This document shows positions 3,624 to 54,225 of a stretch of DNA of 64,000 nt, piece by piece. The stretch is from assembly GCA_044440125.1 (NCBI GenBank), contig JBITAJ010000012.1:1-64000 (forward strand), read 5' to 3'. Numbering within the stretch: position 1 is the first letter of the stretch; the number at the start of each line of letters is the position of its first letter. The notes beneath the pieces are model-generated. The model was not told where the DNA came from. It made no database searches and saw only the letters and a list, made by a program, of their open reading frames with translations. Both the position numbers and the translations under genes were made by a program. The stretch is from Sedimentisphaeraceae bacterium JB056 (lineage in GTDB: Bacteria; Planctomycetota; Phycisphaerae; Sedimentisphaerales; Sedimentisphaeraceae).

Positions 3624-3626
3624 GAG

Positions 3627-10557: not shown

Positions 10558-11403
10558 ATGCGAAAAACTTATAAACTTATCGTGTGTAAAGGTTTTACTC
10601 TTATAGAGCTTCTTGTGGTTATATCCATTATTGCTATCCTGATGTCAATAATGATGCCGAGTTTGCAAAAAGCAAGACAACAGGCGAAATTGGCAATCTG
10701 TGCGAATAATCAGCACCAGCTAATTTTAGGGGTGACTTCTTATCAGTCTGATTTTTATGATTTCCCACCCTCAATTCAAGGTAAAATATGGGGCACTAAT
10801 AATGTGTGGACTCAACCCTACCGCCTTAATTATTTTCCAAAACCGGTATATCAAAACGATAGCGGGTTTGCAGGTGGTGTAATGAGTGAATTTTTAGAAC
10901 CATATATCAGTGATGCAATGATTTTTGGTTGCCCAATGTCACCACCTAGAAAAAATTATAGCGTAAGAAGTGCAGTTAGTGGTAAGGAGTTGGATTACCA
11001 GCAAGCCTATCTTTCTGGTGAAATAAATTACGTTGACGCATCTTATTGGCAGTTATGGAATTATAGAGGATTTAATTCAGTATTTAATCCTAAAAAGTTT
11101 ATAGGCCCTGGCAAAAAATCAAAGATGACTCTTCTTACCTCTGATGTTTTGTGCTGGAATGATGTTGCTGCCGGACTTCCAAATATGTGGTTGTCAAGCC
11201 ATCGTAACATTAAAAAAGGATCTATGAAAGCAAGAAATGATGTCTTTTATGCTTGGGAGGATGCGGAAAAGATAAAGCCTGATAATATAAATATGAATGC
11301 AGGTTATTCTGATGGACATGTCGAAAGATTCAAGTCATCAGACACTTATGAAATGAGATTAGGTAGTGACCTTAAATGTTATATTCCAACTAAATTTAAT
11401 TAA
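10558..11403 (+). CDS. Prepilin-type N-terminal cleavage/methylation protein (DUF1559 / H-X9-DG type)
   Basis: KG^FTLIELLVVISIIAILMSIMMPSLQKARQQAK, a central CP motif, and C-terminal MNAGYSDGHVE. Confidence 0.9.
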   Translation: MRKTYKLIVCKGFTLIELLVVISIIAILMSIMMPSLQKARQQAKLAICANNQHQLILGVTSYQSDFYDFPPSIQGKIWGTNNVWTQPYRLNYFPKPVYQNDSGFAGGVMSEFLEPYISDAMIFGCPMSPPRKNYSVRSAVSGKELDYQQAYLSGEINYVDASYWQLWNYRGFNSVFNPKKFIGPGKKSKMTLLTSDVLCWNDVAAGLPNMWLSSHRNIKKGSMKARNDVFYAWEDAEKIKPDNINMNAGYSDGHVERFKSSDTYEMRLGSDLKCYIPTKFN

Positions 11404-11423: not shown

Positions 11424-12350
11424 ATGTTGTATGCAAAGAATGTATTGGGATTAGTTACGATATTTTTAATGATATTCAGTTGTCTGAGTTATGCTCAGTT
11501 ACCTGTTACAGATGGTTTGGCTTTACATCTTGAACCGTCTGGGATTGTGGAAAGTGAAGTTGAAGGTGTAATGCATGTTACGGCATGGCTTGACAGCTCA
11601 GGTAATGGGTATGATGCCGGGCCTACTCCTGATCCTTTAGAATTACCAGTTAAAATTGTTGATCCTATGACCGGTTTAGATATGGTGCACTTTGAAGATG
11701 ATGGGCTTTTAATACCTTCAGATTCTAATTCATTAACTCCAAAGACAGATGGTATTACTATTCTTGTTGTAGCCAATACTGATGAAGCTACTGCTAATCA
11801 GTACTATATTCAGAAGGCGAACACTGGCTCAACAGTAGAAGGCTGGAGTGTTAATATGGTTGACAGAGGTCGTCTTGGCAGTCGTATCTGCGGTAAAGGT
11901 GGAACCGATGATGAAAACAGAGGATGGCTCTATAAATATCGCGGCACTACTGACAGAGTTATTGTGACGACTATTTTCTATTATGATCAAGGAACAAATA
12001 TCGGTGAAGTATATGCTGCCGTAAATGGCGATGACACCGGTTATTTATCTAATATATGGTCAGAGCTGTATTACGGAAATTCTAATCCGGATGCGGATGT
12101 TGAGATTGGTAACCTTTTCTATGGTGATATAGCTGAGATCATAATTTATGACGCAGAGTTAAGCCAGACAGAGCTTGAATCAATGTACACTTATTTGTCA
12201 AATAAATATTATATTGATACGCCATTTTCCACTGGTTGTGAAGCAGTATGGGCTGCCGGTGAAGGCGAAGAAGCTGATGTTAATAAGGACTGCTTGATAA
12301 ATATTGATGATTTTGTAGAAATGGCAAATAATTGGCTGCTTAGCTATTAA
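11424..12350 (+). CDS. Secreted LamG/ConA-like protein with C-terminal dockerin-like tail
   Basis: Signal peptide, WLDSSGNG...GDIAEIIIYDAELS, and C-terminal ADVNKDCLINIDDFVEMANNWL. Confidence 0.75.
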   Translation: MLYAKNVLGLVTIFLMIFSCLSYAQLPVTDGLALHLEPSGIVESEVEGVMHVTAWLDSSGNGYDAGPTPDPLELPVKIVDPMTGLDMVHFEDDGLLIPSDSNSLTPKTDGITILVVANTDEATANQYYIQKANTGSTVEGWSVNMVDRGRLGSRICGKGGTDDENRGWLYKYRGTTDRVIVTTIFYYDQGTNIGEVYAAVNGDDTGYLSNIWSELYYGNSNPDADVEIGNLFYGDIAEIIIYDAELSQTELESMYTYLSNKYYIDTPFSTGCEAVWAAGEGEEADVNKDCLINIDDFVEMANNWLLSY

Positions 12351-13429: not shown

Positions 13430-14626
13430 ATGAAAAAGAGTAATAGATTCATATTTTGTGCTGTTTTAATTCTTATCAATATTTCTTTTGCTGCAGAGCC
13501 ATTATTTCAATCAAGTCTGCTTTTTGAACGTCAAACAAAGGAAGATCATTATCGTGGCCCTCGAATCATACAATTGCCATCGGGGCGAATAGTTGTCGGG
13601 GCAACGTTGAAGCTTGGGCATATGCGAGATACTGGTGGTGTTGATGAAGGACGTTTTAAATATAGTGATGATGATGGCCAGACATGGCAAACTACAGAGA
13701 AATATAAAATTGGAGATGTTGTCGACAGCAATACCGGCAAGATCTGGAGTATTTCCCATGATTGGCCAATGAATGATGCTGAAGGTAATCCTATGACAGA
13801 GACATGGATGATCAATAATACCCAAAAAGGTATCGCTATTGGATCAACCATGGAAATATCTTCAAGCAGTGATGGTGTAAACTGGGAAAGCAAAGATATT
13901 ACTGATAAGTTTTTCACCTATACTAATGGCGGCCTTGCATGGTTTATTGGTCACGGTATTCAGCTTGAAAAGGGGAAGTATGCTGGCAGATTGATTATTC
14001 CGGGTAGATATTTTGGCAAAGAGTGGGATCATTGCGGGCCAAGTATGCATAATACATTGGCTTATAGTGATGATGATGGCAAGACATGGAATTGGGGCGG
14101 CAGTGCACAAGGTTACACAGGAGAAGCCTGTATCGTTGAACTTTCAGATGGTTCTGTTTATATGAGTAACCGTAATCATAATCCAGAGACAGCAGGTTAT
14201 CGTTCATATTGTATAAGTAAAGATGGCGGCAAAACATTCACCGAATTCGGTGTAGAAGAGGAATTGCCAGAGCCAAGATGTCATGCCTCTATGGTTAGAT
14301 ATTCTTTTCCGGAAGAAAAAACAAATACTCCAGGCAGAGTTTTATTCTTAAATCCATCTGTGAGAATTCCGGGTACCTCAATTGCACCTAAGAATGGTCG
14401 AAAAAATCTTACTGTCAAACTCAGTTATGATGATTGCAAGACATGGCCTGTATCGAAAACAATTGACGCCGGCATGGGTGGTTATTCTGATATGATTGTT
14501 ACTAAAGACGGTACAGTTATCTGTGTATTTGAATCTGGTAAAGAAGAGATTTATGCAGAGGATATTACACTTATAAGGTTTAATGTTGAATGGCTTGAAT
14601 CCGGCTTTGAACCCAAAATGAAATAA
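13430..14626 (+). CDS. Secreted sialidase-family (GH33-like) protein
   Basis: Signal peptide, YRGPRI (RIP-like motif), Asp-boxes SDDDGQTW, SDDDGKTW, SKDGGKTF and SYDDCKTW, plus GRKNLTV and GYSDM. Confidence 0.85.
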   Translation: MKKSNRFIFCAVLILINISFAAEPLFQSSLLFERQTKEDHYRGPRIIQLPSGRIVVGATLKLGHMRDTGGVDEGRFKYSDDDGQTWQTTEKYKIGDVVDSNTGKIWSISHDWPMNDAEGNPMTETWMINNTQKGIAIGSTMEISSSSDGVNWESKDITDKFFTYTNGGLAWFIGHGIQLEKGKYAGRLIIPGRYFGKEWDHCGPSMHNTLAYSDDDGKTWNWGGSAQGYTGEACIVELSDGSVYMSNRNHNPETAGYRSYCISKDGGKTFTEFGVEEELPEPRCHASMVRYSFPEEKTNTPGRVLFLNPSVRIPGTSIAPKNGRKNLTVKLSYDDCKTWPVSKTIDAGMGGYSDMIVTKDGTVICVFESGKEEIYAEDITLIRFNVEWLESGFEPKMK

Positions 14627-16609: not shown

Positions 16610-16712
16610 TCACCCTTGTGTTTCTATTTAGAAAAAATGATATCAGATAAAGTTTGTAGCGTTTAGGAATAACGCAATGAAACCAATTTGTAAAAAAATT
16701 TGGAGAAATAAT

Positions 16713-19700
16713 ATGGCAAGACGAATGATATTTATAATCTTATGTGTAATATGTTCGAATATTTCTGTTTTTTCTGCAGTATTGGCATATGAGGGGTTTG
16801 ATTATAGTACTAGCGGGCTTAATGGTCAAAGTGGTGGTACAGGCTTTTCTGGTTCATGGTCAGCAACTGGTGTAGAAACATCTGCAGGCAGTTTATCTGC
16901 TCCTTCTGCCTATGGCTTAAGTACAACAGGCGGGAAAGTGGCGGCTGATATGAGCGGAACCAGTATGAGGAGATTTCTAAGTACAGGTCTAAATTTGAAT
17001 CCAGCTTCACAGACAACATATTATCTGAGTATGCTTTTTGAAAGACAGGATTCTAGTAATGATGGATCAGGAGAGTGGATATCAATTTTCAGATTAAAAA
17101 ATTCCAGCAACCAGCAAATACTTAAATTCACAACAGGAAGCGGTGAAAATATTAGTATTACAGATGACAATGCTACCGATTTTTTTACCAAGCCGGATTG
17201 TTTTGAAATTGGCAAAACTTATTTAGTTGTAATGAAGATAGAGGCAAGAAATGATGGATTCGATAATGCTTATATTAAATTATTCGATGAAGACACCGCG
17301 TATATTACAGATGATTTGGATTATCTAAATAGTGATGTGCATATATCTTTTGACAGCAGCTCTACTATAACGAATATAACAACAGATTTTGGTACTAATC
17401 AAAATTATGTATATTTCGATGAGTTTCGCATTGGCACTGCATGGGCAGATGTTGTAGGCGGTGATTTTGTTCCTAAGTTGGCGTATGAAGATTTTGATTA
17501 CGGGACTGCCGGCTTAAATGGTCAAAACGGTGGAACAGGATTTAACGGAGCCTGGACAGCATCAGGTATTGAAACCAGTTCTACAAGTTTGGCAGCTCCT
17601 GCAGGATATGAGTATGTACCATCTGGTGGTGATGTTGCTGCTGATAATTCTGGTCAGGAAGCCAGGCGTGAATTTGCGTTCGATATTAATTTGGATCCTG
17701 AAGTTGGAGACAACTTGGTTTATTACTTTAGTGTGTTGTTCAAGAAGATAGATACCACTGGTGATCAGGAATCTAATGAATATATTCAGCCTATAAGGTT
17801 ATTAAACAGCAGCAATACCGTTATTGTTGACTATATTATTGGTAGTAATGAATCTGTGGCTACTATGATAAATGGCGGCGTGGCAGTTGCTACCTCATCT
17901 GACTACATAGAAAAAGATCAAACTTATTTATTAGTAGGCAAGCTCCTTTGTCGAGGCAGCAATACCCCTCAGTATTTGGATACCGATGATGTTAGTTATA
18001 TAAAAGTTTTGAAGGTTGGCACGGATACAGTTTATAGCGAGCCTAAAGATGAACAGTATTGGGATTGTATAGCAACTGCAAATTGTAGCGATACTATTAG
18101 CAAAGTTGCATTAAAATTCGGAGCCAATCAAACTGCTGTCCATATAGATGAATTCAGAGTTGGAACAACATGGGATCAAGTAGTTAATAATGATAAAGAA
18201 CTGATTCCACCAATATCTGATTATCTCCGTGATGATTATTTGCATTGCAGCTCTTCAGAGATCAGTCGAATAGAATCTGCAACCGATAAAGGATTAATGA
18301 ACATCAGGCCAGTTATTTTACCTGAAGGCGAAAATTTTCTCGGAAGCAATTTCCATATGGGTTGGCCAGTTGCGGCTATGAGTGATGATACTATTATCAT
18401 GCATTCCAGGCGTTTTGTATATCACACAGCTACGACTGAATTCAAACAAACATACCCATCATTCGCTGATGATTATAGCCAGATATTTTACTGTATTTCT
18501 AATGATGCAGGTAAAACATGGGGGCCTATGATAGATATTCAGCCGTTTTTTGCTGGTTCTTCTGGAGATACAATTGGCGGAATGATGAATATTGGGACCA
18601 ACAATAATGATGAATTTATTTTGAGATATAAGGGAATGGCAATTAGTGATGATGGCGGCCAGAATTGGGCATTATCAGAAGGAGCCTTTGATAATTGTAA
18701 TACGACTGATTCGGAAGGTATGGGACCTATTATCATTAATCATCCGGTTTTTGGATTAATGATGTTTAATGGATCTGATGCTGATGAAGAAGGTACTCCT
18801 CCGTGGAAAGCTTATATCAGACGCTCAACAGATGATGGGTTTACATGGGATGACATTTCATGGGACACTTCTAAAGATGGGGATTACGACTACACTTGGC
18901 CTAAGGAACCTGCAGCTTTAACTTGGGGGCCTGGACATATTTTGCTTATTTCACGAGACCACAGTTCAGAGTTTCCTGATGATGGCAGTACATGGGCAAT
19001 GAGTCAGCATTTATATAAATACGAATCTGGGGATACTTTCAGTGCCAGTGATATTGTATTTGAAACTCAGAGGTCAAACATTGAAGGAAATCTCTGGGAT
19101 AATATATGGGCTAATGATACTGCTGATGTTTCTTATAATCCTGTGACAGGCCGCATTGAAGTATTGCATTGTGCTCGATTTGGCGGCGGTCCAGGCTATG
19201 ACGGTAATAACACAGAAGTTGCCAAGGAAACACTTAATATTTGGAGTATAGATCCTGACGAATTGCTTGCAGGAAGCAACGTTTGGCGATTTGAAGGTAC
19301 AATGTTAGTTAGAAATGATCGCCATAGCCCAGCTACTAAAATTGACGGCTTACATCCAGGTTCTGCTGTTATCGATGAGGATAATGACCTGCAGCATATT
19401 TATGTCTATGCTGGGGGACACTGCGGTGAAGAAGTTGGTGTTTTTCAGATTGACAGAACTCTCAATACGGGCCAGTTGAGTGCATATTTAAAATCAAGTT
19501 TGCCAAATTGTCAATATACTAAAAAGATCACACTCGACTGCGATGATTTATACGATGAGCTTAGTGATGTCATTGTTACTATAAAACTAAACTCAAGCAA
19601 TATTGTATATAATCAATTTAAGGCTAATGCTGATGATATGTATTTCACAGATTCTCAGCAAAATATATTAAGACACTATATTTACCAATGGAATACTTCT

Positions 19701-20627
19701 GGCGATTCTTATGTACTTGTCAAAGTTCCTCACCTTGACCCAAGCAGTTCAGATAATCACATATTTATAAACTGGGGTGATTCTAACGCTCACTTCTATG
19801 AGTATCAGGAAGAGTTAAATCCTGACTTGGATAGTTTTTCTGTTAGTTTCTGGGTTAAGAACGATACATCGACCGGTCTGTATTATATGGTTAATAAAGG
19901 TAATGACAGCAGCAGTTCAGAAGTTGGCTGGAGTTTCTTCCGCGACTCAGCCACTTACAGTAATCGCTTGAGATTCAGAGTACAAGGAAACTATTATGTC
20001 AGCAGTGAAAATTTTACGGATACCTCGAACTGGCATCATGTAGCTGGTGTTCTTGACCGGTCTAATAATCTTCTAAAGCTTTACTTGGACTCTGTCTACG
20101 CAGGATCATGCAGTATTTCAAGTGTAAGTTCTATTTTCTCTGCTGAAGATTATACTGTTTATTCAGGTTCTTATGGTAATGTTGATGATGTACATATCAT
20201 ACGCCAAGCTCTAACGGCTAACGATATAACTGCTCTTTACAATGCAGGCAGAAACGGAGCCGTTAGCCAAGCTTTCGTTACATTGCCAACCGTTACTATC
20301 TCTACTTCAGACTATTATGCGTATGAATCGAATACTGCTAATACAGCCAGTTATACAGTTACTCGTACTGGTAGTACAACAGGTTCGCTTGATGTACACT
20401 ATTACATGTATAGTACAGCAACAAACGGTGAAGATTACAATAAGCTTTCAGGTACAGTAACAATACCTGCAGGTAACTCTTCGGCAATGATAACTGTTAC
20501 AGCTATAAATGATACTGAAGATGAATCTTTGTATGAATGGGCAGAGATAAGTCTTTTGGATGGCGTTGACTATGATCTTGGTGCCGCTGCAACAGCATAT
20601 GCCTATGTAGTTGATGATGATCCTTGA
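16713..20627 (+). CDS. Large secreted multidomain protein: two ~230-aa repeats, Asp-box/sialidase-like propeller, DUF2341-like region, LamG and Calx-beta-like domains
   Basis: GGAG RBS and signal peptide. Repeats run LAYExFDY...DEFRxGTxWxxVV. Asp-boxes SNDAGKTW, SDDGGQNW and STDDGFTW. LamG motif NWHHVAGV. Calx-beta motif TVTRTGSTT...ATNGEDY...GTVTIPAG. Confidence 0.82.
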   Translation: MARRMIFIILCVICSNISVFSAVLAYEGFDYSTSGLNGQSGGTGFSGSWSATGVETSAGSLSAPSAYGLSTTGGKVAADMSGTSMRRFLSTGLNLNPASQTTYYLSMLFERQDSSNDGSGEWISIFRLKNSSNQQILKFTTGSGENISITDDNATDFFTKPDCFEIGKTYLVVMKIEARNDGFDNAYIKLFDEDTAYITDDLDYLNSDVHISFDSSSTITNITTDFGTNQNYVYFDEFRIGTAWADVVGGDFVPKLAYEDFDYGTAGLNGQNGGTGFNGAWTASGIETSSTSLAAPAGYEYVPSGGDVAADNSGQEARREFAFDINLDPEVGDNLVYYFSVLFKKIDTTGDQESNEYIQPIRLLNSSNTVIVDYIIGSNESVATMINGGVAVATSSDYIEKDQTYLLVGKLLCRGSNTPQYLDTDDVSYIKVLKVGTDTVYSEPKDEQYWDCIATANCSDTISKVALKFGANQTAVHIDEFRVGTTWDQVVNNDKELIPPISDYLRDDYLHCSSSEISRIESATDKGLMNIRPVILPEGENFLGSNFHMGWPVAAMSDDTIIMHSRRFVYHTATTEFKQTYPSFADDYSQIFYCISNDAGKTWGPMIDIQPFFAGSSGDTIGGMMNIGTNNNDEFILRYKGMAISDDGGQNWALSEGAFDNCNTTDSEGMGPIIINHPVFGLMMFNGSDADEEGTPPWKAYIRRSTDDGFTWDDISWDTSKDGDYDYTWPKEPAALTWGPGHILLISRDHSSEFPDDGSTWAMSQHLYKYESGDTFSASDIVFETQRSNIEGNLWDNIWANDTADVSYNPVTGRIEVLHCARFGGGPGYDGNNTEVAKETLNIWSIDPDELLAGSNVWRFEGTMLVRNDRHSPATKIDGLHPGSAVIDEDNDLQHIYVYAGGHCGEEVGVFQIDRTLNTGQLSAYLKSSLPNCQYTKKITLDCDDLYDELSDVIVTIKLNSSNIVYNQFKANADDMYFTDSQQNILRHYIYQWNTSGDSYVLVKVPHLDPSSSDNHIFINWGDSNAHFYEYQEELNPDLDSFSVSFWVKNDTSTGLYYMVNKGNDSSSSEVGWSFFRDSATYSNRLRFRVQGNYYVSSENFTDTSNWHHVAGVLDRSNNLLKLYLDSVYAGSCSISSVSSIFSAEDYTVYSGSYGNVDDVHIIRQALTANDITALYNAGRNGAVSQAFVTLPTVTISTSDYYAYESNTANTASYTVTRTGSTTGSLDVHYYMYSTATNGEDYNKLSGTVTIPAGNSSAMITVTAINDTEDESLYEWAEISLLDGVDYDLGAAATAYAYVVDDDP

Positions 20628-20831
20628 ACCCTGGTAGGTGATATTGCTCCCAGTGGCGGCGATGGTATAGTTAACCTAAAAGATTTTACAAAATTTGCAT
20701 CTGCATGGTTGAGCAATCCTACGGACTCAAATTGGAATATTGAAAGCAACTTATATCCAGAAGAAGGAGACGATGTAATTGATATTCAAGATTTCAGAGT
20801 GTTTGTTGAAATTTGGTTATTGGGCTATTAA
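20628..20831 (+). other. In-frame 67-codon dockerin-like extension behind the TGA of the 16713 gene
   Basis: Translates as TLVGDIAPSGGDGIVNLKDFTKFASAWLSNPTDSNWNIESNLYPEEGDDVIDIQDFRVFVEIWLLGY*. No ATG of its own. Confidence 0.85.
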
Positions 20832-20888
20832 TAGACATTTAATAAAGATGATAAGTTTATTTATTGGTAAGTAAAGGTAGATCGTAGC

Positions 20889-21974
20889 ATGACATCAAAA
20901 GAACGAGTTTTGGCATCCATAAATTTCTCGCAGCCTGATAGAGTACCTGTTGATTTTAGCGCAAATAGATGGGTTTTGGAAAAGCTTTATAAGGCAACAG
21001 GTATTAATGATTACAGCCAACTTTTAAGGCACTATAACGCTGATATTGTGGATTTGCGTGGCATTGTCGACCCCGTCTATAAAGGTCCGGTTCCTTATAT
21101 TGATGTTCAGGAAGATGGCATCCGCCAGAATTTTTGGGGTTGGCGTACAAGAATATGTGAAACTGCTACCGGCCCTGAAGAGATGTATGCTGAATTCATT
21201 TTACAAAATGCTGACCTGACTCAAGTTGAAAATCATCAATGGCCTCAGGTTGACTGGTTTGATTTTGCTGATTTTTCAGAACGGTTAAAACCATGGTCTG
21301 ATTTTGCAATCATGGCAAGCGGTGCGAGTATTTGGCAGCATCCATCTTTCTTGAGAAGTCTTGATCAGCTTCTAATGGATGTTGCTCTTCAAGATGAAGC
21401 TGGAATTTATGTCATAGATAAATTTGTGGAATTTTATACAAATTATTTTGACAAAATGTTTAGCTCTGCACCAAATCAAATACAAATTCTCAGAATAGCA
21501 GACGATATTGGCATGCAGGACAGATTGATATTCAGCCCGTCTCAATTCAACAGCTTTCTTGCACCTCGCTTAAGAAATATTGTTGACATGGCTCATAGCC
21601 ACAACGTGAAGGTAATGTTCCACTCTTGTGGAGCGGTAGAGCCTTTGATTAATAATATCATAGATATAGGTATTGATATTCTTGATCCGTTACAGATAAC
21701 AGCTTCTGGCATGGACCCCGATATATTGAAACAGAAATATGGCAGCAGAATATGTTTACACGGTTCTATTGATACCCAATATTTGCTTCCAAACGGTACT
21801 CCTGAAGATATAATTGAAAATGTCAAAAAAATGATAACGATACTTTCACCGGATGGCGGCTTTATTCTTTCGCCTACACACATACTTCAAAATGATGTCT
21901 CTGTTGAGAATATTGAAGCTCTTTATTCCACTGCCGAGAAATACGGCAGCTATGAAAGTGCTAACTTTGTTTGA
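20889..21974 (+). CDS. Uroporphyrinogen decarboxylase / MtaA-CmuA-like family protein
   Basis: Motifs MTSKERV...PDRVP, ADDIGMQ, FHSCG, DILDPLQ, HGSIDTQ, GGFILSPTH and ENIEA. Confidence 0.85.
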   Translation: MTSKERVLASINFSQPDRVPVDFSANRWVLEKLYKATGINDYSQLLRHYNADIVDLRGIVDPVYKGPVPYIDVQEDGIRQNFWGWRTRICETATGPEEMYAEFILQNADLTQVENHQWPQVDWFDFADFSERLKPWSDFAIMASGASIWQHPSFLRSLDQLLMDVALQDEAGIYVIDKFVEFYTNYFDKMFSSAPNQIQILRIADDIGMQDRLIFSPSQFNSFLAPRLRNIVDMAHSHNVKVMFHSCGAVEPLINNIIDIGIDILDPLQITASGMDPDILKQKYGSRICLHGSIDTQYLLPNGTPEDIIENVKKMITILSPDGGFILSPTHILQNDVSVENIEALYSTAEKYGSYESANFV

Positions 21975-22000
21975 AAGTTAAATTTCTAAGGAGACATCTG

Positions 22001-23104
22001 GTGATAAATGCTAAGCGTTTAGTTTTATATATTTCTGTGGTAACTTTTATTTTGCCGTTTTCAGTAAGTGCTGGGAAAAGTTCAAAGTCTTTTTTTAACT
22101 GGACTAACGATTTAATTCTGCCTCCAGCTTCCGGCCAGTCTGAATCATTAGGTGTTGCAGGTCCATTTGCAGGTGTCAGTAATGATGCATTGATAGTTGC
22201 AGGCGGAGCTAACTTTCCTAAGCCTTATTGGGGCCAAAATAAAACATGGTTCTCTGATATCTGGGTGACTGAAAAAGAAGATTCTGGATATAAATGGTAC
22301 ACAGGCTTTAAGTTGGACCGGCCAATTGCTTACGGCATGACAGTGACAACTCAGTATGGAGTTGTTTGCATGGGTGGTGCAGATGCCAACCAATGTTTTG
22401 CAGATGTTTTTATTCTGAGCTGGGATAAAAATAATAAAAAGATCACAAAAAAAGTTCTACCATCAATGCCTGAAAAATGTGCCTTTGGCAGTGCAACCGT
22501 TATTGGTGATAAAATCTATGTTGCTGGCGGACTAAGCTCAGTAAGACTTGATTCCGCAATGAAAAATTTCTGGTTATTGGATTTGTCTAAAAAAGATACA
22601 GATGGATTTGCGTGGCAAACACTTACCAAGTGGCCAGGTCCTCAGAGAGCATTTAATGTTACTGTCGCTCAACAAAATAAAGACAGTAATTGTGTTTATG
22701 TAATTAGCGGCAGAATGCAAAAAGATCAGACAACTGCATTTTTGAAAGACACCTATGAATATGATCTGATCAGCAATAGCTGGAGAGAATGTGCAAAACT
22801 TCCAACACCAGTTTGTGCTGGAGTTGGTGCGGCAATTGGTCAGAGTGATATATTTCTTTTTGGTGGAGCAGACGGTACACTTTGGGATAAAGTAGACGAT
22901 CTTGGTGATAATCATCCCGGTTTCCCAAAAGATATATGGGCTTATAATACAATTTCAGATACATGGCGCAAAGCAGGTCAGGTACCTCAAACGCATGTTA
23001 CTGCCGCATCTGTTAAATGGAATGGCAAATATTTGATTGTCAGTGGCGAAGTCAGGCCTCTTGTCAGAACTCCCAAAATATTACAAGCAGAACCAATTTT
23101 ATAG
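22001..23104 (+). CDS. Kelch-repeat NanM-like (N-acetylneuraminate mutarotase-type) protein
   Basis: AAGGAG RBS then GTG, signal peptide, GVAGPFAG...VAGGANFP, and repeated GG...W Kelch blades. Confidence 0.8.
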   Translation: MINAKRLVLYISVVTFILPFSVSAGKSSKSFFNWTNDLILPPASGQSESLGVAGPFAGVSNDALIVAGGANFPKPYWGQNKTWFSDIWVTEKEDSGYKWYTGFKLDRPIAYGMTVTTQYGVVCMGGADANQCFADVFILSWDKNNKKITKKVLPSMPEKCAFGSATVIGDKIYVAGGLSSVRLDSAMKNFWLLDLSKKDTDGFAWQTLTKWPGPQRAFNVTVAQQNKDSNCVYVISGRMQKDQTTAFLKDTYEYDLISNSWRECAKLPTPVCAGVGAAIGQSDIFLFGGADGTLWDKVDDLGDNHPGFPKDIWAYNTISDTWRKAGQVPQTHVTAASVKWNGKYLIVSGEVRPLVRTPKILQAEPIL

Positions 23105-23278: not shown

Positions 23279-24804
23279 ATGATGAAGCGTAATATCTTAG
23301 TTTTTTCTATTTTAATTATATGTATTAATTCATTGCTTATTGCAGATGTTAAGCTTCCTGCCATCATTGGTAACAATATGGCATTACAGCAAAAAACAGA
23401 TGCTTGTATATGGGGGTGGGCAGACTCTAATGAGACTGTTTCTATAAAATCAACTTGGCAGTCCTCTACAATTAAAACCAAAGCAGATAGCAATGGCAAA
23501 TGGAAAACTAAGATCAAAACTCCTCAAGCAGGCGGGCCGCATACCCTTACGATAAAGGGAAATAATACGATTGAAATCAAAAATATTATTATCGGAGAAG
23601 TTTGGCTTTGTTCTGGACAGTCGAATATGGAGATGCCGATGAAAGGCTATAATAATCAGCCAGTTGCAAATAGCTCTGAAGAGATAGCAAGTTCTTCTAA
23701 TAAATCTATTCGGCTTTTTAAGGTGGCAAGAAATATTTCTGATGTCCCTGTCGAAGATACAAAAGGTTCATGGGTTGAGTGTACTCCTGATACCGTCAAA
23801 GATTTTAGCGCTACTGGATATTATTTTGGCAGAAAAATTAATAAAGAAACCCAATATCCTGTTGGATTGATTTGCAGTTCATGGGGAGGAACTTTGGCCC
23901 AGGCTTGGACACGTCTTGATTTTATTAAGTACGATGATAATCTAAATCCTGTGATTGGTTATTATAATACAAACCTTGAGAAATGGAAAAAGCATGTCTT
24001 GAAGCTGGATCAGAAAAACCATGTCGTAGAGCTGGGATACGGGCTAATGATGAGTCCGGAGTTCTTTATAACGGAATGATTGCACCTATAACTAATATGA
24101 CAATTCGTGGTACTATTTGGTATCAGGGTGAATCAAATACAAATGATGCATATAGGTATAGAGATCTTTTTCCAACAATGATTGATAATTGGCGATGTGA
24201 TTTCAAGAATTATCAAATGCCGTTTTATTTTGTCCAATTAGCAAGTTTTACGGATCAAAAGCCTGGTCGGCAAGTTGAACCGTACAGAGGACAGCCTCGG
24301 GATCATTCATGGGCAGAATTAAGGGAAGCACAATTTATGACTTCTTTTATGAAAAACAATGGTATGGCAGTTATAATTGACATTGGAGAATCAAACTGCA
24401 TTCATCCTGCCAATAAAAAAGATGTTGGTGAGCGTCTTGCTCTTTGGGCATTGGCTAAAGATTACGGACACGATATTGAATGCTCCGGACCATTATATGC
24501 TGGTTATAAAATCGAAGGCAGAAAAATCAGGGTTATGTTTAGCCATGCACAAAGTGGTCTAATCTTCAAAGATGGAAAGCCAAAGGGATTTGCGATTGCT
24601 GGTGAGGACAAAAAGTTCGTTTGGGCTGATGCACAGATTGATGGTGACACAGTTCTTGTATATAGTGATGCAATTGATACTCCAGTTGCTGTTAGATATG
24701 CTTGGGATGTGGACCCTGAAAATAGCCTTTATAATAAGTCAAATTTGCCAGCGTCACCTTTTAGGACAGATGACTGGAATGGTTTAACTTTTGGTAAAAA
24801 ATGA
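23279..24804 (+). pseudogene. Sialate O-acetylesterase (SASA) split by a frameshift near 23986-23992
   Basis: ORF 23279-24079 has a signal peptide, GEVWLCSGQSNME and WGGT. Overlapping ORF 23983-24804 has LYNGMIAP, WYQGESN, IHPANKKDVGERLA and PASPFRTD. Confidence 0.88.
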
Positions 24805-26583: not shown

Positions 26584-29082
26584 TTAGTTGTTAGTTACTC
26601 TTCCGCTTGAAAGCCAGTATTCGGATAGCCGGCTCAAATCTTCAATACTTACAATACAATCGTTGTTATAATCAAAGTCGACGACTCCTCTGCATTGAGA
26701 GGTTGTGTCAGATTCAACACCTGCGTTATAAAGCTCGTCAATATGTCCTTGTTCAAGAGCATAGTCATATACTCTTATCACCGATATATCTCCTGTGTAA
26801 TACAAGTCGTCTCTTGGTGTGCTTAATTGAGTTGGTTCACCTGTAGAAAATACAAAATCACTGATTGATGTGGCAGTAACTGATGTTGTGCCGCTGTCAA
26901 TCAGCGATCCGTTGACCCATATCCAATACGGCATATCAATTGTACCAGTTGTTGAATTATATACAGCAATATCTTTTGCAAAGACTAAATGAGTCCATGT
27001 GTCTGTGCTGTAGTCGAGAATATTGTCGCTTCTGAAATGGAATGCTGCCTTAAGACTTGTCAGTGTTGACTCATTATCTCTTTGCTGGAATTCAAGTGAG
27101 TATTTTCCGCTGCCGGCATCGCATCTTACATCGAATCTCCATCCGTTATCCAAGCTGTCTATATTGCCGATTACCATTCCGGTAAGCTTTGAATTATTTA
27201 TCTGCTGATTTTGCCTCAGCCATACTTCGATTGTGCAGGCATCTGAACCCATACCAATTAAATTGTCAGGATCGACATTAACAACCTGGTCGTTATTTTC
27301 TGTTGTGGAATCAAATCTATAGAACCATACAGCTTTATTATCGGCAGCGTTTTCTGCCGTGATCTCAGGTATTCCTGTAAGATCTCCAGTGCCGCTGCCT
27401 GTTACAGGTTTCCAGTATGTTTCTGTTTGGCTTCCCGCATTATCTGCATTCATCTCGAAAACAGGATTGGCTGACCAGTTGGGTGTCATAAGGTCAATCC
27501 ATATTATTCTTGCACTTTCACCTGAATCAAGTTTAATATAGATATCATTGTCGCCTGATTCTAAATATTCTATCGGTACAATCCATGCTTTATAATCTTC
27601 TTCCTCGCCCTTGAAGTTAGGGTAAGTATTATCGTAAATTTCACTCACGTCTCCCGTTGGGCTAAGCTGATAACCATTGATTTTTGCGGTCCAGCTGCTG
27701 TCTGCTATAGAGGCGTCTGCTCTTATTCTTAATTTGCTCTGTCCATAGAGTTGAGGGTATAGAGGCATGGTAAAAGTATAACTGCTTCCTGCGGAGAAGA
27801 CACGGTTAAGCGGTCTGTTGCTGATAGGCGGGGAGTTCCATATTCCGCCTATAAAGTGATAATGATTTTGTGAAGCAAGCCACTGCGGTTCTCCAAGATG
27901 TTCCATTATCTCAAACGGCGGTTCGGTGAATGGTGCGCCGATATCTTCGCCATGATCGCGATAATATTGGAAGTTGAACAAGCTGACTCCTGAAGCCCCT
28001 TCGTTGTAAGCAATATGAGCGCTTGTATAGAATTGCTCGGCTGTTGTTCGCAGATAATCATAACTGTCGTATACTCCCGGTACGGGGTTGCCCGTCAGCG
28101 GTGTACCTGTCATTTCATAGTAAACGGCAGTATCGGGTATCAGGGCTTTAATTTCAGCTATTTCTGCCTGCTGATCTGTAAAGAAGTATGATGAAAGATT
28201 GACCATGTCAACGCCGGCAGCTACCATTGACGGTAAGTCAATACCTAATGCATCATGCGTACTGATATAGCATGGTACGCGTACACAAAGCCACTTATAG
28301 TCGCCTTCAGCTGTATTGTCATCCAGATAGCCCCTTACATCCGCTATTACAGAAGTCATTATGTTGGCTCGTTCAAAGCTCGTTGTTGCAGATGTATCAA
28401 AGAAGCTGCACATTCTCATGAAATCAAGCTCAAGACCGTCAATATCGTAGTTCTCGCATATCTCTTCAATAGAGGCCAGCTTATATTCTCTTACTGCCGG
28501 TATCGCCCAGTTTTGTACTCTTTCGTACCAACTGTCAAGGTTATCGCCAATTCTGTAATCTGGATTATTTTTATAAAAAGGAGTAATGTTATTGCATGCA
28601 CCAGAAGGTATCTGACCGGGTAGATCATTAACATTATCAAGCCTGTGACCATCATTTAGTCTGAATGAGATAAATGGTGTTAGTCCCTTTTCACGGCATC
28701 TATCTACAAAGACTTGAACTACATCGCCGTCATTTATCATATACATTCCAAAGCTGTCAGGATTGACCTGATAGGTGTTCATAAACCAGAAGTAGTGATC
28801 AGGGGCTGGATACACAGTGCTTTTCCACCATGGAACCCAGCAAACTCCCGGTTGAAGCATATGAACCTCAACGCCTGTCCCTACTGTCTCATCAACGCTT
28901 GCCCGTAGCTTTTCTGAATTGAATGGACTGGCTACTGTCTGATAAGGTGAGATACACGAATATATATTGGTAGTGTCGTTACTATATAATACCTTAAACG
29001 GGGAGGTTGGCCTTTCTGAATAACAAACACATGTCGATATTAATAAAATACATAGACAGGTATATCTTTTTGCTTTAGACAT
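26584..29082 (-). CDS. Secreted putative glycoside hydrolase-like TIM barrel + LamG + dockerin-like tail
   Basis: Signal peptide. ENYDIDGLELDFMR resembles the GHL10/DUF187 motif. LamG motif GDISVIRVYDYAL. C-terminal FDYNNDCIVSIEDLSRLSEYWL. Paralog of 34898 (N part) and 32992 (C part). Confidence 0.72.
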   Translation of the reverse strand: MSKAKRYTCLCILLISTCVCYSERPTSPFKVLYSNDTTNIYSCISPYQTVASPFNSEKLRASVDETVGTGVEVHMLQPGVCWVPWWKSTVYPAPDHYFWFMNTYQVNPDSFGMYMINDGDVVQVFVDRCREKGLTPFISFRLNDGHRLDNVNDLPGQIPSGACNNITPFYKNNPDYRIGDNLDSWYERVQNWAIPAVREYKLASIEEICENYDIDGLELDFMRMCSFFDTSATTSFERANIMTSVIADVRGYLDDNTAEGDYKWLCVRVPCYISTHDALGIDLPSMVAAGVDMVNLSSYFFTDQQAEIAEIKALIPDTAVYYEMTGTPLTGNPVPGVYDSYDYLRTTAEQFYTSAHIAYNEGASGVSLFNFQYYRDHGEDIGAPFTEPPFEIMEHLGEPQWLASQNHYHFIGGIWNSPPISNRPLNRVFSAGSSYTFTMPLYPQLYGQSKLRIRADASIADSSWTAKINGYQLSPTGDVSEIYDNTYPNFKGEEEDYKAWIVPIEYLESGDNDIYIKLDSGESARIIWIDLMTPNWSANPVFEMNADNAGSQTETYWKPVTGSGTGDLTGIPEITAENAADNKAVWFYRFDSTTENNDQVVNVDPDNLIGMGSDACTIEVWLRQNQQINNSKLTGMVIGNIDSLDNGWRFDVRCDAGSGKYSLEFQQRDNESTLTSLKAAFHFRSDNILDYSTDTWTHLVFAKDIAVYNSTTGTIDMPYWIWVNGSLIDSGTTSVTATSISDFVFSTGEPTQLSTPRDDLYYTGDISVIRVYDYALEQGHIDELYNAGVESDTTSQCRGVVDFDYNNDCIVSIEDLSRLSEYWLSSGRVTNN

Positions 29083-29186
29083 ACGCAACTCCTTAAAGAA
29101 TTTCAATTAATGATGCAGACAAAATCGAAAATCAGCTGAACATAGAGTGTATATCATTGGAAGATTTTGTCAATCGCATTATCTTT

Positions 29187-31055: not shown

Positions 31056-31817
31056 TTATTTCTTAGGGTTCGACCACCAGATTTGTGCATATGGATTTCT
31101 TGTGTAACTGTGAAAAACTTCGCAATCAGTGAAATCTACAAATGAAGCGTGTCCATCAACAAATGACATTGGTGCTCCTTTGGGTTCTTCTGTAACCTTG
31201 AAGCTTTTAGGATGACTGTATTGCCAGTCTCCACCATATGTTTTGTTCTCAAGAACGCATCCAGATACAGCCATATACGGAGATGCTTCCGATATCTTGG
31301 CAGGTGTTACAAATTTATCTTCGTCGTTCCATTCAGCTACGCTTGTAAGGTCTTTGGGGTAACCTACGTAGATGTAATAATTGCCTTCTACATAAGTTGT
31401 TCCGCCTGACTCATTTTCTTCAAGCTGAATATCCCAGTCCTTTACGTCTCTTAAGCCGCCCGGGCAACGAGTGATTTTATAATCTGAGAGGTAAGGTCTC
31501 ACAAAAGTTTCGAGTAGATTGGTTCTGACGAAACCGGAGACTTCAGCGTAATATATTAACGGGTTATTGTAGTAAAATTGTTTCCCGATGTTGGTGTCAA
31601 CTTTTCTGTTAGGGAATCTCTGGTCGTTTTCCATTGTGTATTGTGTTATAGCGGTCGCCCATTGCTTGCAGTGACTGCCGCATATAGTCTTTTTCGCTGA
31701 CTCACGGGCTTTGCCTAAAGCCGGCATCAGAACAGCCATCAATATCGCAATGATTGAGATCACTACTAAAAGTTCAATAAGTGTGAAGCCCTTTCGGCTA
31801 TTTGTTTTATTTAACAT
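31056..31817 (-). CDS. Prepilin-type N-terminal cleavage/methylation protein (DUF1559 / H-X9-DG type)
   Basis: KG^FTLIELLVVISIIAILMAVLMPALGKARESAK, RCPG, and SH...FVDGHAS. Confidence 0.9.
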   Translation of the reverse strand: MLNKTNSRKGFTLIELLVVISIIAILMAVLMPALGKARESAKKTICGSHCKQWATAITQYTMENDQRFPNRKVDTNIGKQFYYNNPLIYYAEVSGFVRTNLLETFVRPYLSDYKITRCPGGLRDVKDWDIQLEENESGGTTYVEGNYYIYVGYPKDLTSVAEWNDEDKFVTPAKISEASPYMAVSGCVLENKTYGGDWQYSHPKSFKVTEEPKGAPMSFVDGHASFVDFTDCEVFHSYTRNPYAQIWWSNPKK

Positions 31818-32991: not shown

Positions 32992-34572
32992 TTACTCTGG
33001 TGATACGATACTGTCGGCAAGCCAGTAAGCAGCGAAGGCTGCCATGTCATCAAGGTTTACAACACAGTCACCTGTAACATCGTAATCCTGACCGCCGCAT
33101 TGCCATGATGTCATGGAATCAATACCTGCATCGTAGTTGGCCTGTACCTCAGCTTGTGTCAGCAGGCGATTGTAGATACGGACAGCAGCTATATCACCTA
33201 CGTAATAGATGTCATCCCTATAGGTTCCGAATCGAATATCATCAGTTTTGAAGTAGAAATCGTCAATAGAAGATGCAGTAACGCTCTGTACACCATGCGT
33301 TACTCTTGTCCCGCCGTTGACATATATGTCGTGATTGATTTCGATTTTGCCGGTGGTGGAATTGTATTGAGCAGCATATTTGACGAATACTACATGTACC
33401 CAATCAGTAGCACTGTAATCAAGGATGTATCCAGAATGATAATAGAAAGCTCCTGTTGTTGATGTTGCGGCTGTTTCATTATCTCTTTGCAGGAATGCGA
33501 TCGCGTATTTGCCGGTTGCGGCATCACATCTGGTTTCCAAACGCCAGCCTGTATCTGCTCCGTCGCAATTTCCTACGATCATGCCTCTTCCTTTAGAGTT
33601 GGCGATTGCTGCCGGCATTCTGATCCATGCTTCGATTGTGCACCAGTCATCGTCAACAAAACTCAGATTGTCGTGTGTCTCTAAACCAGTTGCCTGATCT
33701 TTAGTGTTGCCGGCTCCTCTATCAGTAAATTCGTAGAACCAGTTGTAAGTGCCTGCCGTTGCATCGGCTGTTTCAGCTGTCAATACCGGTTTGCCCTCAA
33801 GCAAACCATCGCCAGAGCCTAAAACCGGTGTCCAGTAGTCATTTACAAGATCACCGGCATCTGCAGCATTTGCTTCGAAAGCAAGGCCGTTTGAGATGAC
33901 TACTTCGCCAAAAAGGAGATCCGTAGGTACGTAATTAGGCTCGTTTGTCCAGAAGATAGCATCAATTCTCTCTGAGTTTTCGCCGGCTTCTCTTTCGTTT
34001 ATTCTGAATACAATCTTGCCGTCAGTGTCGAGAGAGAATTCTTTTTCTACGCCGGAGGTGGTGGAGTCTGCACCGAGCCATATCCATTTGCCTGCACCTG
34101 CACCGTCATTGCCTGGCAGATCATTGCCAAGAATATCATCTTCATCGGTTACTCCGGCTATTGCTGTTGAGTACCATGATTCTCCTGAACCATCGCCTGA
34201 GTCATTTTTGACAACCAGATAATTAGCCTCTTCATCATCTGCTGCAGGCTGATTAACCCTAACCCAGCAATACCAGTTGCCGCTAAGCTCTATCGCAGGA
34301 TCCGGCAAATCAGCAGAATCAATTGAATATTCGGCCCACCACTGATCTATCTGGGTTTTATTCGAGTACTCAGAAAAATAAAGAGCACTTCCTGATGTGT
34401 TCCATGCTTCTGTGTCTACTGTGAATTGATCTGTCTTGGAATCATAATTTTCTGCTTCAATCCAGATGGAAACATTTCCTGTTGATGAATTGTAGTCTAT
34501 TCTGCAATCAGAAGCGATTGCAAGACTGCAGAAAACAATGAAAAAAAGCACGCATGATCTAATCATAATCAT
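32992..34572 (-). CDS. Secreted, probably non-catalytic beta-sandwich + LamG protein with dockerin-like tail
   Basis: Signal peptide, IWIEAENY (CBM-like start), LamG motif GDIAAVRIYNRLL, and C-terminal YDVTGDCVVNLDDMAAFAAYWL. Confidence 0.75.
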   Translation of the reverse strand: MIMIRSCVLFFIVFCSLAIASDCRIDYNSSTGNVSIWIEAENYDSKTDQFTVDTEAWNTSGSALYFSEYSNKTQIDQWWAEYSIDSADLPDPAIELSGNWYCWVRVNQPAADDEEANYLVVKNDSGDGSGESWYSTAIAGVTDEDDILGNDLPGNDGAGAGKWIWLGADSTTSGVEKEFSLDTDGKIVFRINEREAGENSERIDAIFWTNEPNYVPTDLLFGEVVISNGLAFEANAADAGDLVNDYWTPVLGSGDGLLEGKPVLTAETADATAGTYNWFYEFTDRGAGNTKDQATGLETHDNLSFVDDDWCTIEAWIRMPAAIANSKGRGMIVGNCDGADTGWRLETRCDAATGKYAIAFLQRDNETAATSTTGAFYYHSGYILDYSATDWVHVVFVKYAAQYNSTTGKIEINHDIYVNGGTRVTHGVQSVTASSIDDFYFKTDDIRFGTYRDDIYYVGDIAAVRIYNRLLTQAEVQANYDAGIDSMTSWQCGGQDYDVTGDCVVNLDDMAAFAAYWLADSIVSPE

Positions 34573-37367: not shown

Positions 37368-37408
37368 AACAAAACCTTTCATAAAAAACAATCAACTAAT
37401 TAAATATC

Positions 37409-54205: not shown

Positions 54206-54225
54206 AATTGTTAAGAGGCTTTAAG

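What the first reader, a model, noticed from the sequence alone, without database searches (positions are those of the whole stretch)
20622..20831. Complete dockerin-like domain hidden in frame behind a single TGA: readthrough switch or recent nonsense mutation
Seen: ...GAT GAT GAT CCT TGA ACC CTG GTA GGT GAT... continues for 67 sense codons to TAA at 20829-20831. These codons encode two intact repeats (GDIAPSGGDGIVNLKDFTKFASAWL and NLYPEEGDDVIDIQDFRVFVEIWL). The stop sits precisely in the linker after the Calx-beta domain, near where the other tails have a Cys. The extension has no ATG. A weak CTGG...CCAG hairpin starts 4 nt after the stop. Inference: leaky UGA readthrough would give both free and tethered isoforms of one enzyme, echoing the free/tethered paralog pairs nearby. 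A point mutation or sequencing error is equally possible.
Basis: partly seen in the sequence, partly recalled or inferred. Interest (0 to 1): 0.75.

Follow-up and report, generated by a model that had tools for sequence, protein, structure and literature searches.

The report
Nonsense mutation cutting off a dockerin tail
A large secreted sugar-processing protein has lost its C-terminal docking module to a single genuine stop codon that a second strain also carries; this looks like an ordinary young nonsense mutation, not a translational switch.

Summary
ORF 16677..20627 ends at TGA 20625-20627. Sixty-seven in-frame sense codons follow, up to TAA 20829-20831.

- **The tail is a real dockerin module.** Its family profile hits solved dockerins, the AlphaFold model has pLDDT 95.6, and the best PDB fold matches are all dockerins.
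- **The tail belongs to this gene.** Three full-length relatives (49-54% identical, 1370-1386 aa) carry it without interruption, with a sense codon where the window has TGA.
- **The stop is not an assembly error.** A second strain has an ORF 696/701 identical that ends at the same '...VVDDDP', and its tail is called as a separate 65-aa ORF. The NCBI and Logan protein sets hold the window's own truncated protein.
- **Nothing supports programmed readthrough or selenocysteine.** TGA ends 13 of 42 ORFs in the window. The RNA downstream folds no better than shuffles. Rfam finds nothing there.
- **The tail may be evolving faster than the body.** It differs between the strains at 3 of 64 residues, the body at 5 of 701 (p = 0.02-0.06, weak).
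- **A neighbouring gene is also broken.** A sialate O-acetylesterase gene 2.6 kb downstream is frameshifted.

Best reading: a recent, real nonsense mutation gives a dockerin-less protein. Basal UGA leak is possible, perhaps raised by the slow-terminating Asp-Pro-UGA-A context, but no programmed signal is shown.

The parts
16677..20627 (+). Truncated ORF of 1316 aa counted from ATG 16677. The form held in the NCBI and Logan protein sets starts at ATG 16713 and is 1304 aa (P0330). Read from the translation, it has an N-terminal hydrophobic signal-like stretch and two N-terminal repeats of unknown family. These are followed by a weak BNR/Asp-box region, DUF2341, a LamG-like lectin fold and Calx-beta. 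It ends ...VVDDDP-TGA.
   Evidence: The Pfam 'Toxin_R_bind_N' hit overlaps the Laminin_G_3 hit. I read it as a shared lectin-like jelly-roll fold, not as a toxin.
20292..20525 (+). Calx-beta domain match, residues 1206-1283. It is the last domain before the stop.
   Evidence: E = 1.5e-5, 25.5 bits against a cut-off of 27; 27.6 bits on the C-terminal piece alone.
20625..20627 (+). In-frame TGA in the linker between Calx-beta and the dockerin module. The context is Asp-Pro-UGA-A.
   Evidence: The second strain's ORF, P0282, ends at the same residue. Full-length relatives have N or T at the aligned column.
20628..20828 (+). Dockerin-module remnant of 67 codons, intact and in frame with the ORF. 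Repeat 1 is at 20637-20711 and repeat 2 at 20748-20819.
20829..20831 (+). TAA, the ancestral stop of the full-length 1384-codon gene.
   Evidence: The relatives end 0-2 residues from the aligned position.

Best explanation
The gene once encoded a secreted multidomain protein of about 1384 aa with a C-terminal dockerin module. The domain order was: two N-terminal repeats, a BNR-like propeller region, DUF2341/LamG, Calx-beta, dockerin.

A single nonsense change created a TGA in the linker between Calx-beta and the dockerin. The ribosome now terminates there. The cell makes a 1316-aa (or 1304-aa) protein with every domain except the dockerin, so the protein is presumably no longer held wherever dockerin-bearing proteins of this organism are held.

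The 201 nt behind the stop are a young, still intact remnant. The mutation is real and older than the split between two strains that are about 99% identical in protein. It is too recent for the remnant to have decayed.

A few per mille to a few per cent of ribosomes may read UGA through, as on any bacterial UGA. That would be an unselected by-product.

- **Shown:** the stop, the homology and fold of the tail, uninterrupted relatives, and the stop in a second strain.
- **Inferred:** the direction of change (sense to stop), loss of tethering, and the absence of selection on the tail.
For: 1. **The tail belongs to the gene.** P0095 (1386 aa), P0122 (1371 aa) and P0128 (1370 aa, locus L001, MAG 'Planctomycetes bacterium GWF2_42_9') are 49-54% identical over the full length. 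All three continue through the linker into a homologous tail. Tail identity is 26/64 and 27/67, much like the Calx-beta region at 51/114 and 47/114.
2. **The stop is real.** P0282 (702 aa) is 696/701 identical to residues 616-1316 and ends at the same ...VVDDDP. P0131 (65 aa) is the tail called as a separate ORF starting at tail codon 3. Both come from an ENA contig of 34,558 nt. The window's own 1304-aa truncated form is held under both NCBI and Logan. No uninterrupted form exists among relatives above 90% identity: the cluster has 2 members, both truncated.
3. **TGA is an ordinary stop in this organism.** It ends 13 of 42 ORFs, against 24 for TAA and 5 for TAG.
4. **There is no recoding signal.** Downstream folds have z from -0.10 to +1.04. 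Rfam finds nothing local, with a best E of 1.7 for an archaeal snoRNA model. The only tRNA in the window is tRNA-Ser.
5. **Between the two strains the tail changes faster.** It differs at 3/64 residues, the gene body at 5/701 (Fisher p = 0.023). Against all 1108 other comparable residues (14 differences) p = 0.061.
6. **A second broken gene lies 2.6 kb away in the same cluster.** A SASA esterase is split into 23279..24079 and 23983..24804, matching Pfam profile positions 3-109 and 102-174. The same truncated N-terminal piece is in a Logan contig as P0323.
7. **Asp-Pro-stop is not a typical evolved C-terminus.** It is the most depleted C-terminal dipeptide across 1,582 bacterial genomes, with odds ratio 0.33 (passages of PMC7246954).
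Against: - The remnant has no stop, frameshift or loss of any of the six family-invariant or nearly invariant residues (D19, W27, W36, D55, W63, L64) in either strain. That is also what a translated, selected extension would show.
- The stop has persisted across a strain split.
- The rate test is weak. Two of the three tail differences are the last two residues, which also vary among relatives. The test against all other sequence is not significant (p = 0.061). Only protein differences could be counted, because the second strain's DNA was out of reach.
- The second strain's contig also shows frameshift-like breaks: P0282 starts where the window has a G5 run, and P0324 diverges after residue 46. 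It may therefore be an error-prone assembly.
[quoted passage not shown] 2002, as cited in PMC7246954). The leak here could therefore be above average.
Confidence: 0.8

Rival explanations
1. Selected leaky readthrough. The UGA is kept because near-cognate decoding gives a minor dockerin-bearing (tethered) isoform beside the major free one.
For: - The stop is shared by two strains, and the tail is intact in both.
- UGA is the leakiest stop (PMC7026636 passages).
- Basal bacterial readthrough is 1e-3 to 1e-2, and up to about 10% under stress (PMC10057733 passages).
- Asp-Pro-stop stalls termination in E. coli (PMC7246954 passages).
- The tail model is a well-folded dockerin.
- Precedents exist. 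Q-beta coat and a Bacillus subtilis enzyme are listed in the references of PMC7026636 (reference list only).
Against: - There is no stimulatory structure.
- The +4 base is A, not the C linked to leaky UGA.
- All three full-length relatives have a sense codon.
- The window holds no second stop-then-dockerin case. An HMM of the tail family run over all six-frame segments finds only ordinary ORF parts besides the tail itself.
- The tail does not evolve more slowly than the body.
- A neighbouring gene is also broken.
Confidence: 0.08
2. Sequencing or assembly error. The true codon is a sense codon and the gene is intact.
For: A single substitution would be enough. No reads could be inspected.
Against: - A distinct strain (5 differences in 701 residues) ends its ORF at the same residue, and its tail is called separately.
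- The identical truncated protein is held from both NCBI and Logan sources.
Confidence: 0.03
3. The TGA encodes selenocysteine, taking the place of a linker Cys.
For: - TGA is one step from TGT or TGC.
- P0122 and P0128 have a Cys one alignment column before the stop position.
- Three other tails in the window have a Cys 9-16 residues before their Ca-loop.
Against: - There is no SECIS-like hairpin better than chance. The best local hairpin is -8.1 kcal/mol, and 85 of 200 shuffles fold as well.
- No tRNA-Sec lies in the window, though 64 kb is a small sample.
- The aligned residues are N and T, not Cys.
- The partner Cys of the other tails is Gly here.
- The site is a secreted linker, not a redox site (this last point is general knowledge, recalled).
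Confidence: 0.02
4. Genome-wide reassignment of TGA to an amino acid.
For: None beyond this one site.
Against: Thirteen of 42 ORFs end at TGA. The Pfam matches of several TGA-ending ORFs run to the C-terminal end of their family profiles.
Confidence: 0.005

Closest known systems
Dockerin modules of cellulosomal proteins (Pfam PF00404 Dockerin_1; solved type II dockerins such as 4wi0_B, 2y3n_B, 3kcp_A)
   Same: - Duplicated loop-helix segments in a module of about 65 aa at the C-terminus of a secreted, carbohydrate-related multidomain protein.
- The family profile hits solved dockerins (2y3n_B at E = 2.1e-6).
- The model superposes on them at TM 0.62-0.75 and rmsd 1.6-2.8 A.
- Eleven of 27 family members match Dockerin_1.
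   Different: - The window's tail itself is below Pfam's reach: no Dockerin_1 hit even at E <= 10.
- The loops read DIAPxGGDGxVN, are longer than the classical loop (recalled), and are Trp-rich.
- Pfam finds no cohesin in the 64-kb window.
- The host looks planctomycete-like, not a cellulosome-forming clostridium.
NCBIfam NF041540 'GC-type dockerin domain-anchored protein'
   Same: This is the best curated-model match for the tail. Residues 10-66 match profile positions 13-66 of 67, with E = 2.5e-6.
   Different: The score of 27.8 bits is just under the curated cut-off of 29 bits.
Functional UGA readthrough in bacteria and phages (Q-beta coat read-through protein; Bacillus subtilis extended enzyme)
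   Same: A UGA followed by an in-frame extension that would add a functional C-terminal part.
   Different: Those cases are conserved and experimentally shown. Here the stop is absent from all three full-length relatives, and no stimulatory signal is found. I saw these precedents only as entries in the reference list of PMC7026636. Details beyond the titles are recalled.
Ordinary nonsense-truncated genes (young pseudogene segments) in bacterial genomes
   Same: A single in-frame stop relative to uninterrupted homologues, an intact downstream remnant, and another disrupted gene nearby.
   Different: The truncated product keeps every domain but the last, so the gene is probably still functional and not dead.

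Membership tests
Dockerin domain | Two tandem segments of about 22-25 residues, each a Ca-binding-type loop followed by a helix | tested here: met
   The repeats are visible in the sequence. The model has helices at 17-25 and 53-61, each preceded by a loop, with pLDDT 95.6. Ca binding itself was not tested.
Dockerin domain | Match to curated sequence models | tested here: inconclusive
   Pfam Dockerin_1 gives no hit for the tail itself. NCBIfam dockerin_GC scores 27.8 bits against a cut-off of 29. Eleven of 27 aligned family members match Dockerin_1, best E = 2.3e-15.
Dockerin domain | Dockerin fold | tested here: met
   The top 11 PDB fold matches are all chains of cohesin-dockerin entries, with TMq 0.62-0.75 and probability 0.97-1.00. 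Foldseek E-values are weak (5.6e-3 at best; 0 of 126 matches at E <= 0.001) because the domain is short.
Dockerin domain | Binds a cohesin partner | not testable with these tools
   No cohesin family appeared among the Pfam hits of the 44 window ORFs scanned. The rest of the genome was not available.
Programmed stop-codon readthrough | The stop is conserved in orthologues together with a conserved downstream frame | tested here: not met
   The stop is shared only with a strain about 99% identical. All three full-length relatives at 49-54% identity have a sense codon.
Programmed stop-codon readthrough | Stimulatory context or downstream RNA structure | tested here: not met
   Fold z-scores run from -0.10 to +1.04. 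The +4 base is A. Asp-Pro before the stop is a known slow-termination context in E. coli, but that is not a readthrough signal as such.
Programmed stop-codon readthrough | Purifying selection on the extension | tested here: inconclusive
   Only protein differences were available. The tail differs at 3/64 residues, the body at 5/701 (p = 0.023), and all other comparable sequence at 14/1108 (p = 0.061). This leans against selection, but the numbers are small.
Programmed stop-codon readthrough | The extended protein is detected | not testable with these tools
   Needs proteomics, ribosome profiling or a reporter.
Bacterial selenoprotein gene | SECIS hairpin just downstream of the UGA | tested here: not met
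   Searches show nothing beyond what shuffles give. Rfam finds nothing local.
Bacterial selenoprotein gene | Cys at the aligned position in homologues | tested here: inconclusive
   The aligned residues are N, T and T. A Cys lies one column upstream in P0122 and P0128. The linker alignment is uncertain.
Bacterial selenoprotein gene | Sec machinery (selA, selB, selC, selD) in the genome | not testable with these tools
   Only 64 kb were available, and they hold a single tRNA, tRNA-Ser.
Nonsense-truncated gene | Uninterrupted full-length homologues whose sequence continues into the region behind the stop | tested here: met
   P0095, P0122 and P0128.
Nonsense-truncated gene | The stop is present in the organism and is not an artefact | tested here: met
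   The second strain's ORF ends at the same residue. The truncated form is held from two sources. Raw reads were not seen.

The most novel reading that the evidence does not exclude
The strain-shared UGA sits in a slow-terminating Asp-Pro-UGA-A context and is maintained by selection. Most ribosomes release a free enzyme. A few per cent read through and add an intact dockerin. One gene would then supply both a diffusible and a cell-tethered form of the same glycan-processing protein. This would be a bacterial chromosomal case of functional readthrough that controls protein localisation.
Probability: 0.07. Interest if true: 0.65.

Novelty: already known. Interest (0 to 1): 0.2.

Why it matters
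As it stands, this matters mainly for annotation. The gene should be described as a dockerin-family protein truncated by an in-frame stop. The 201-nt 'intergenic' stretch is a domain remnant, not regulatory DNA.

It also shows that strains of this organism differ, or are starting to differ, in whether this enzyme carries its docking module. Together with the frameshifted esterase next door, this hints at erosion or remodelling of a sialic-acid-related gene cluster.

Only if the minority reading were true, with selected leak giving free and tethered isoforms, would it be of wider interest. Functional readthrough in bacterial chromosomal genes is rarely documented.

Tried and rejected
- **Genome-wide TGA recoding.** Rejected: TGA ends 13 of 42 ORFs.
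- **Readthrough-stimulating or SECIS-like RNA structure.** Four folds of the region behind the TGA were no better than shuffles. The local Rfam search at E <= 10 gave only two chance-level snoRNA matches.
- **Terminator or promoter inside 20300-21100.** There were 0 terminator-like sites, and the promoter-like count (4) was close to the shuffle mean of 3.1.
- **Other stop-then-dockerin cases in the window.** phmmer with the tail and an HMM of the tail family were run over all six-frame stop-to-stop segments of 25 aa or more. Besides the tail they found only parts of ordinary ORFs. The self-hit is circular, because the tail is in the HMM.
- **First genome-contig scan, with the full-length alignment.** Sixty-one pattern matches, 0 relatives. 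The second scan, with the conserved core, gave 39 matches and 1 relative, L001. The window's own genome was not among the species representatives.
- **P0121** (1309 aa, Logan contig of 5,353 nt). It ends ...DIDIVR, four residues into the tail. I could not tell a contig end from a second truncation, so I did not count it either way.
- **Separate expression of the tail.** The window has GTA, not a start codon, where the second strain's 65-aa ORF begins. The piece has no signal peptide (read from the sequence). Rejected as a functional product.
- **Function of the central region.** There are only sub-threshold BNR/Asp-box hits (E = 0.0014 and 0.0041) and non-significant sialidase PDB hits (E about 0.5). 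The enzyme activity is therefore not established.
- **Literature.** 'dockerin' together with 'readthrough' is held by 2 papers, neither about a stop before a dockerin judging by title and abstract (listing only).
- **Not done.** No complex prediction, because no cohesin candidate was found.
Full report
**What is there.** On the + strand an ORF runs from ATG 16677 to TGA 20625-20627 and encodes 1316 aa. An alternative ATG at 16713 gives the 1304-aa form that public protein sets hold. The same frame stays open for 67 more codons (20628-20828) and ends at TAA 20829-20831. It has no in-frame ATG. No ORF of 60 aa or more lies on the opposite strand here.

**The protein.** The start shows a hydrophobic, signal-like stretch and two N-terminal repeats of about 230 aa, beginning AYEGFDY... 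and AYEDFDY... (read). Pfam finds no family for these repeats.
- The central 425 aa give only sub-threshold BNR/Asp-box matches (E = 0.0014 and 0.0041). Their PDB sialidase matches are not significant (E about 0.5).
- The C-terminal third has DUF2341, a LamG-like lectin fold (Laminin_G_3, E = 5.3e-13) and Calx-beta at residues 1206-1283.
- The overlapping Pfam name 'Toxin_R_bind_N' I read as a shared lectin-like jelly-roll fold and nothing more.
- Neighbouring genes suggest a sialic-acid or glycan-use cluster. They include a BNR_2 sialidase-like protein (13430..14626), two sodium:solute symporters, a NanM-like epimerase (21971..23104), a SASA acetylesterase, and GH2 and GH123 hydrolases.
- Prepilin-type/DUF1559 proteins and a PEP-CTERM protein are present. 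The only genomic relative found is from a MAG titled 'Planctomycetes bacterium GWF2_42_9'. Together these point to a planctomycete-like host. I did not establish the taxonomy.

**Is the tail a dockerin?** Yes, by family and by fold.
- Alone, the tail is below Pfam's reach. It scores 27.8 bits (E = 2.5e-6) on NCBIfam NF041540 dockerin_GC, whose cut-off is 29 bits.
- Against 1.84 billion representative proteins it has 362 relatives at E <= 1e-3 and 41 at E <= 1e-10. Most matches lie near a C-terminus, and some proteins carry 2-3 tandem copies, for example P0130 and P0132.
- I aligned the tail with 26 short family members out of the 150 listed. I chose them for their shortness, so they are not a random sample.
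- The alignment gives the consensus DIxPxxxDGxVNxxDxxxFAxAWxSxPxSxNWNxxCDIxPxxGDGxVDxxDLxVFxxxWL. The tail keeps all six invariant or nearly invariant residues.
- Eleven of the 27 sequences match Pfam Dockerin_1, best E = 2.3e-15.
- The profile hits solved dockerin chains: 2y3n_B at 2.1e-6, 2b59_B at 1.2e-4 and 3kcp_A at 3.2e-4. Thirty-eight chains hit at E <= 1, and the weaker ones are EF-hand proteins.
- AlphaFold2 on this alignment gives pLDDT 95.6 and pTM 0.82, with two loop-helix units.
- The 11 best PDB fold matches are all from cohesin-dockerin entries, with TMq 0.62-0.75 and rmsd 1.6-2.8 A. Foldseek E-values are modest, 5.6e-3 at best, as expected for 67 residues.

**Does the tail belong to this gene?** Yes.
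- Searches of 5.8 billion protein clusters found few full-length relatives. P0095 (1386 aa) is 52% identical and P0122 (1371 aa) 49% identical, each covering 99% of the read-through query. P0121 (1309 aa) is 54% identical.
- The other hits share only Calx-beta, judged by their low query coverage and their listed Pfam domains.
- One genomic locus, L001, encodes P0128 (1370 aa), which is in P0122's 90% cluster.
- P0095, P0122 and P0128 run without interruption from Calx-beta through a short variable linker into a tail homologous to the window's. Identities are 26/64, 27/67, and 44% over 54 residues with E = 2e-14.
- At the column of the window's TGA they have N, T and T.
- P0121 ends four residues into the tail. 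Its contig is only 5,353 nt, and I cannot tell a contig end from a truncation.

**Is the stop real?** The 'shorter' search gave the key result.
- P0282 (702 aa) is 696/701 identical to residues 616-1316 and ends at exactly ...VVDDDP.
- P0131 (65 aa), found by the exhaustive search, is the tail itself. It starts with M at tail codon 3, where the window has GTA, and differs at 3 of the other 64 residues.
- Both are reported from one ENA contig of 34,558 nt.
- So a second, distinct strain has a stop at the same place and the tail as a separate frame.
- The window's own truncated protein is held under NCBI and Logan. Its 90% cluster has only these 2 members, and no uninterrupted close relative turned up in any search.
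- An assembly error in the window is therefore unlikely. Raw reads were not available.

**Is there a recoding mechanism?** I found none.
- TGA ends 13 of 42 ORFs, against 24 for TAA and 5 for TAG, so it is a normal stop here.
- RNA downstream of the stop folds no better than dinucleotide shuffles, with z = +0.41, +1.04, 0.00 and -0.10.
- Rfam at gathering thresholds finds only one tRNA in the window, tRNA-Ser(GGA). A permissive local search gives two chance-level snoRNA matches.
- The selenocysteine idea deserves mention. A linker Cys lies one column before the stop position in P0122 and P0128, and three other tails in the window have a Cys 9-16 residues before their loop.
- Against it, there is no SECIS-like hairpin, the aligned residues are not Cys, and the partner Cys of those tails is Gly here.

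**Selection on the tail.** Only protein-level differences between the two strains could be counted.

| Region compared | Differences |
|---|---|
| Tail | 3 of 64 (T21A, G66S, Y67D) |
| Gene body | 5 of 701 |
| Downstream gene (P0320 vs P0321) | 8 of 361 |
| First 46 residues of the esterase | 1 of 46 |

- Fisher's test gives p = 0.023 for tail against body, and p = 0.061 for tail against all other sequence.
- This leans towards relaxed constraint but is weak. Two of the three changes are the last two residues, which also vary among relatives.
- The second strain's contig may be error-prone. P0282 begins MGP... where the window reads ACA TGG GGG CCT. I infer one G fewer in the G5 run.
- P0324 leaves the esterase frame after residue 46.

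**Context that favours decay.** The SASA acetylesterase gene 2.6 kb downstream is split into two overlapping ORFs, 23279..24079 and 23983..24804. They match SASA profile positions 3-109 and 102-174. The frame change lies near an A5 run at about 23988-23992. A Logan contig of 78,567 nt holds the same truncated N-terminal piece, P0323, which ends identically. Two disrupted genes within 3.4 kb fit ordinary mutational erosion better than a designed switch.

**The context of the stop.**
- The new C-terminus is Asp-Pro, followed by UGA-A.
- Passages of PMC7246954 report DP-stop as the most depleted C-terminal dipeptide in 1,582 bacterial genomes (odds ratio 0.33). They cite Hayes et al. 2002 for strong termination stalling and SsrA tagging at DP- and PP-stop in E. 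coli.
- The same paper did not see lower expression for DP-stop in Mycoplasma pneumoniae.
- Passages of PMC10057733 give bacterial readthrough as 1e-3 to 1e-2, rising to about 10% under stress.
- I draw two inferences. Such a terminus is unlikely to be an old, optimised gene end. And some leak into the dockerin frame is to be expected. Neither shows that the leak is used.

**Verdict.**
- The most likely explanation (about 0.8) is a genuine, fairly recent nonsense mutation, shared by at least two strains, that removes the dockerin from an otherwise complete secreted protein.
- Selected leaky readthrough remains possible (about 0.08). Sequencing error (about 0.03) and selenocysteine (about 0.02) are unlikely.

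**What stayed unchecked.**
- Raw reads.
- The rest of the genome: Sec machinery, cohesins and other stop-then-dockerin cases.
- Whether P0121 is a second truncation.

Noticed in passing
window 23279-24804 (+): A sialate O-acetylesterase (Pfam SASA) gene is split by a frameshift into two overlapping ORFs, 23279..24079 and 23983..24804. The frame change lies near an A5 run at about 23988-23992. The same truncated N-terminal piece occurs in a Logan contig (P0323). The second strain's copy (P0324, 54 aa) leaves the frame earlier, after residue 46.
   Followed up: partly
window 18516-18530 (+), G5 run at 18520-18524: The second strain's ORF P0282 starts 'MGPMIDIQ' where the window reads ACA TGG GGG CCT ATG. 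One G fewer would create that ATG in frame. So that strain, or its assembly, appears to have a frameshift inside the same gene.
   Followed up: partly
window 42559-42747 (+), inside ORF 40681..44010: An internal dockerin-family module, not at the C-terminus: residues 628-690 of a 1109-aa CBM96-bearing protein. The HMM of the tail family scores it at i-E = 6.1e-8, and it is flanked by Cys residues.
   Followed up: partly
window 11424..12350 (+), 26584..29106 (-), 32992..34572 (-): Three secreted-looking proteins, two of them with LamG-like domains, end in a single loop-helix repeat with a Cys pair (C...DC.V...D...F...WL). This looks like half a dockerin, and the matches to the tail-family HMM are weak (i-E 0.0038 to 0.67). 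One ends ...WLLSY, like the ...WLLGY of the tail studied here.
   Followed up: partly
window 20889..21974, 39506..40573, 51945..52982, 52979..54205, 54208..55353, 59186..60190: Six paralogous URO-D (uroporphyrinogen decarboxylase family) genes are scattered among glycoside hydrolase and transporter genes. Five match only the C-terminal half of the Pfam profile. Their role in a glycan-use region is unclear.
   Followed up: no
window 36645..37391 (-): A small CBM96-like protein ends in a PEP-CTERM sorting motif. Three prepilin-type N-terminal methylation-motif proteins (10558..11403, 31056..31817, 37409..38218), one of them also matching DUF1559, sit beside the glycan genes.
   Followed up: no
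window 14-3798 (+): Four consecutive ORFs of 194-381 aa have no Pfam family at E <= 1e-4.
   Followed up: no
L001 1261-2187 (+): In the MAG relative, the homologous full-length gene lies directly downstream of a DHDPS-family gene. By recall, that family includes N-acetylneuraminate lyases, which fits a sialic-acid context for this protein family.
   Followed up: partly
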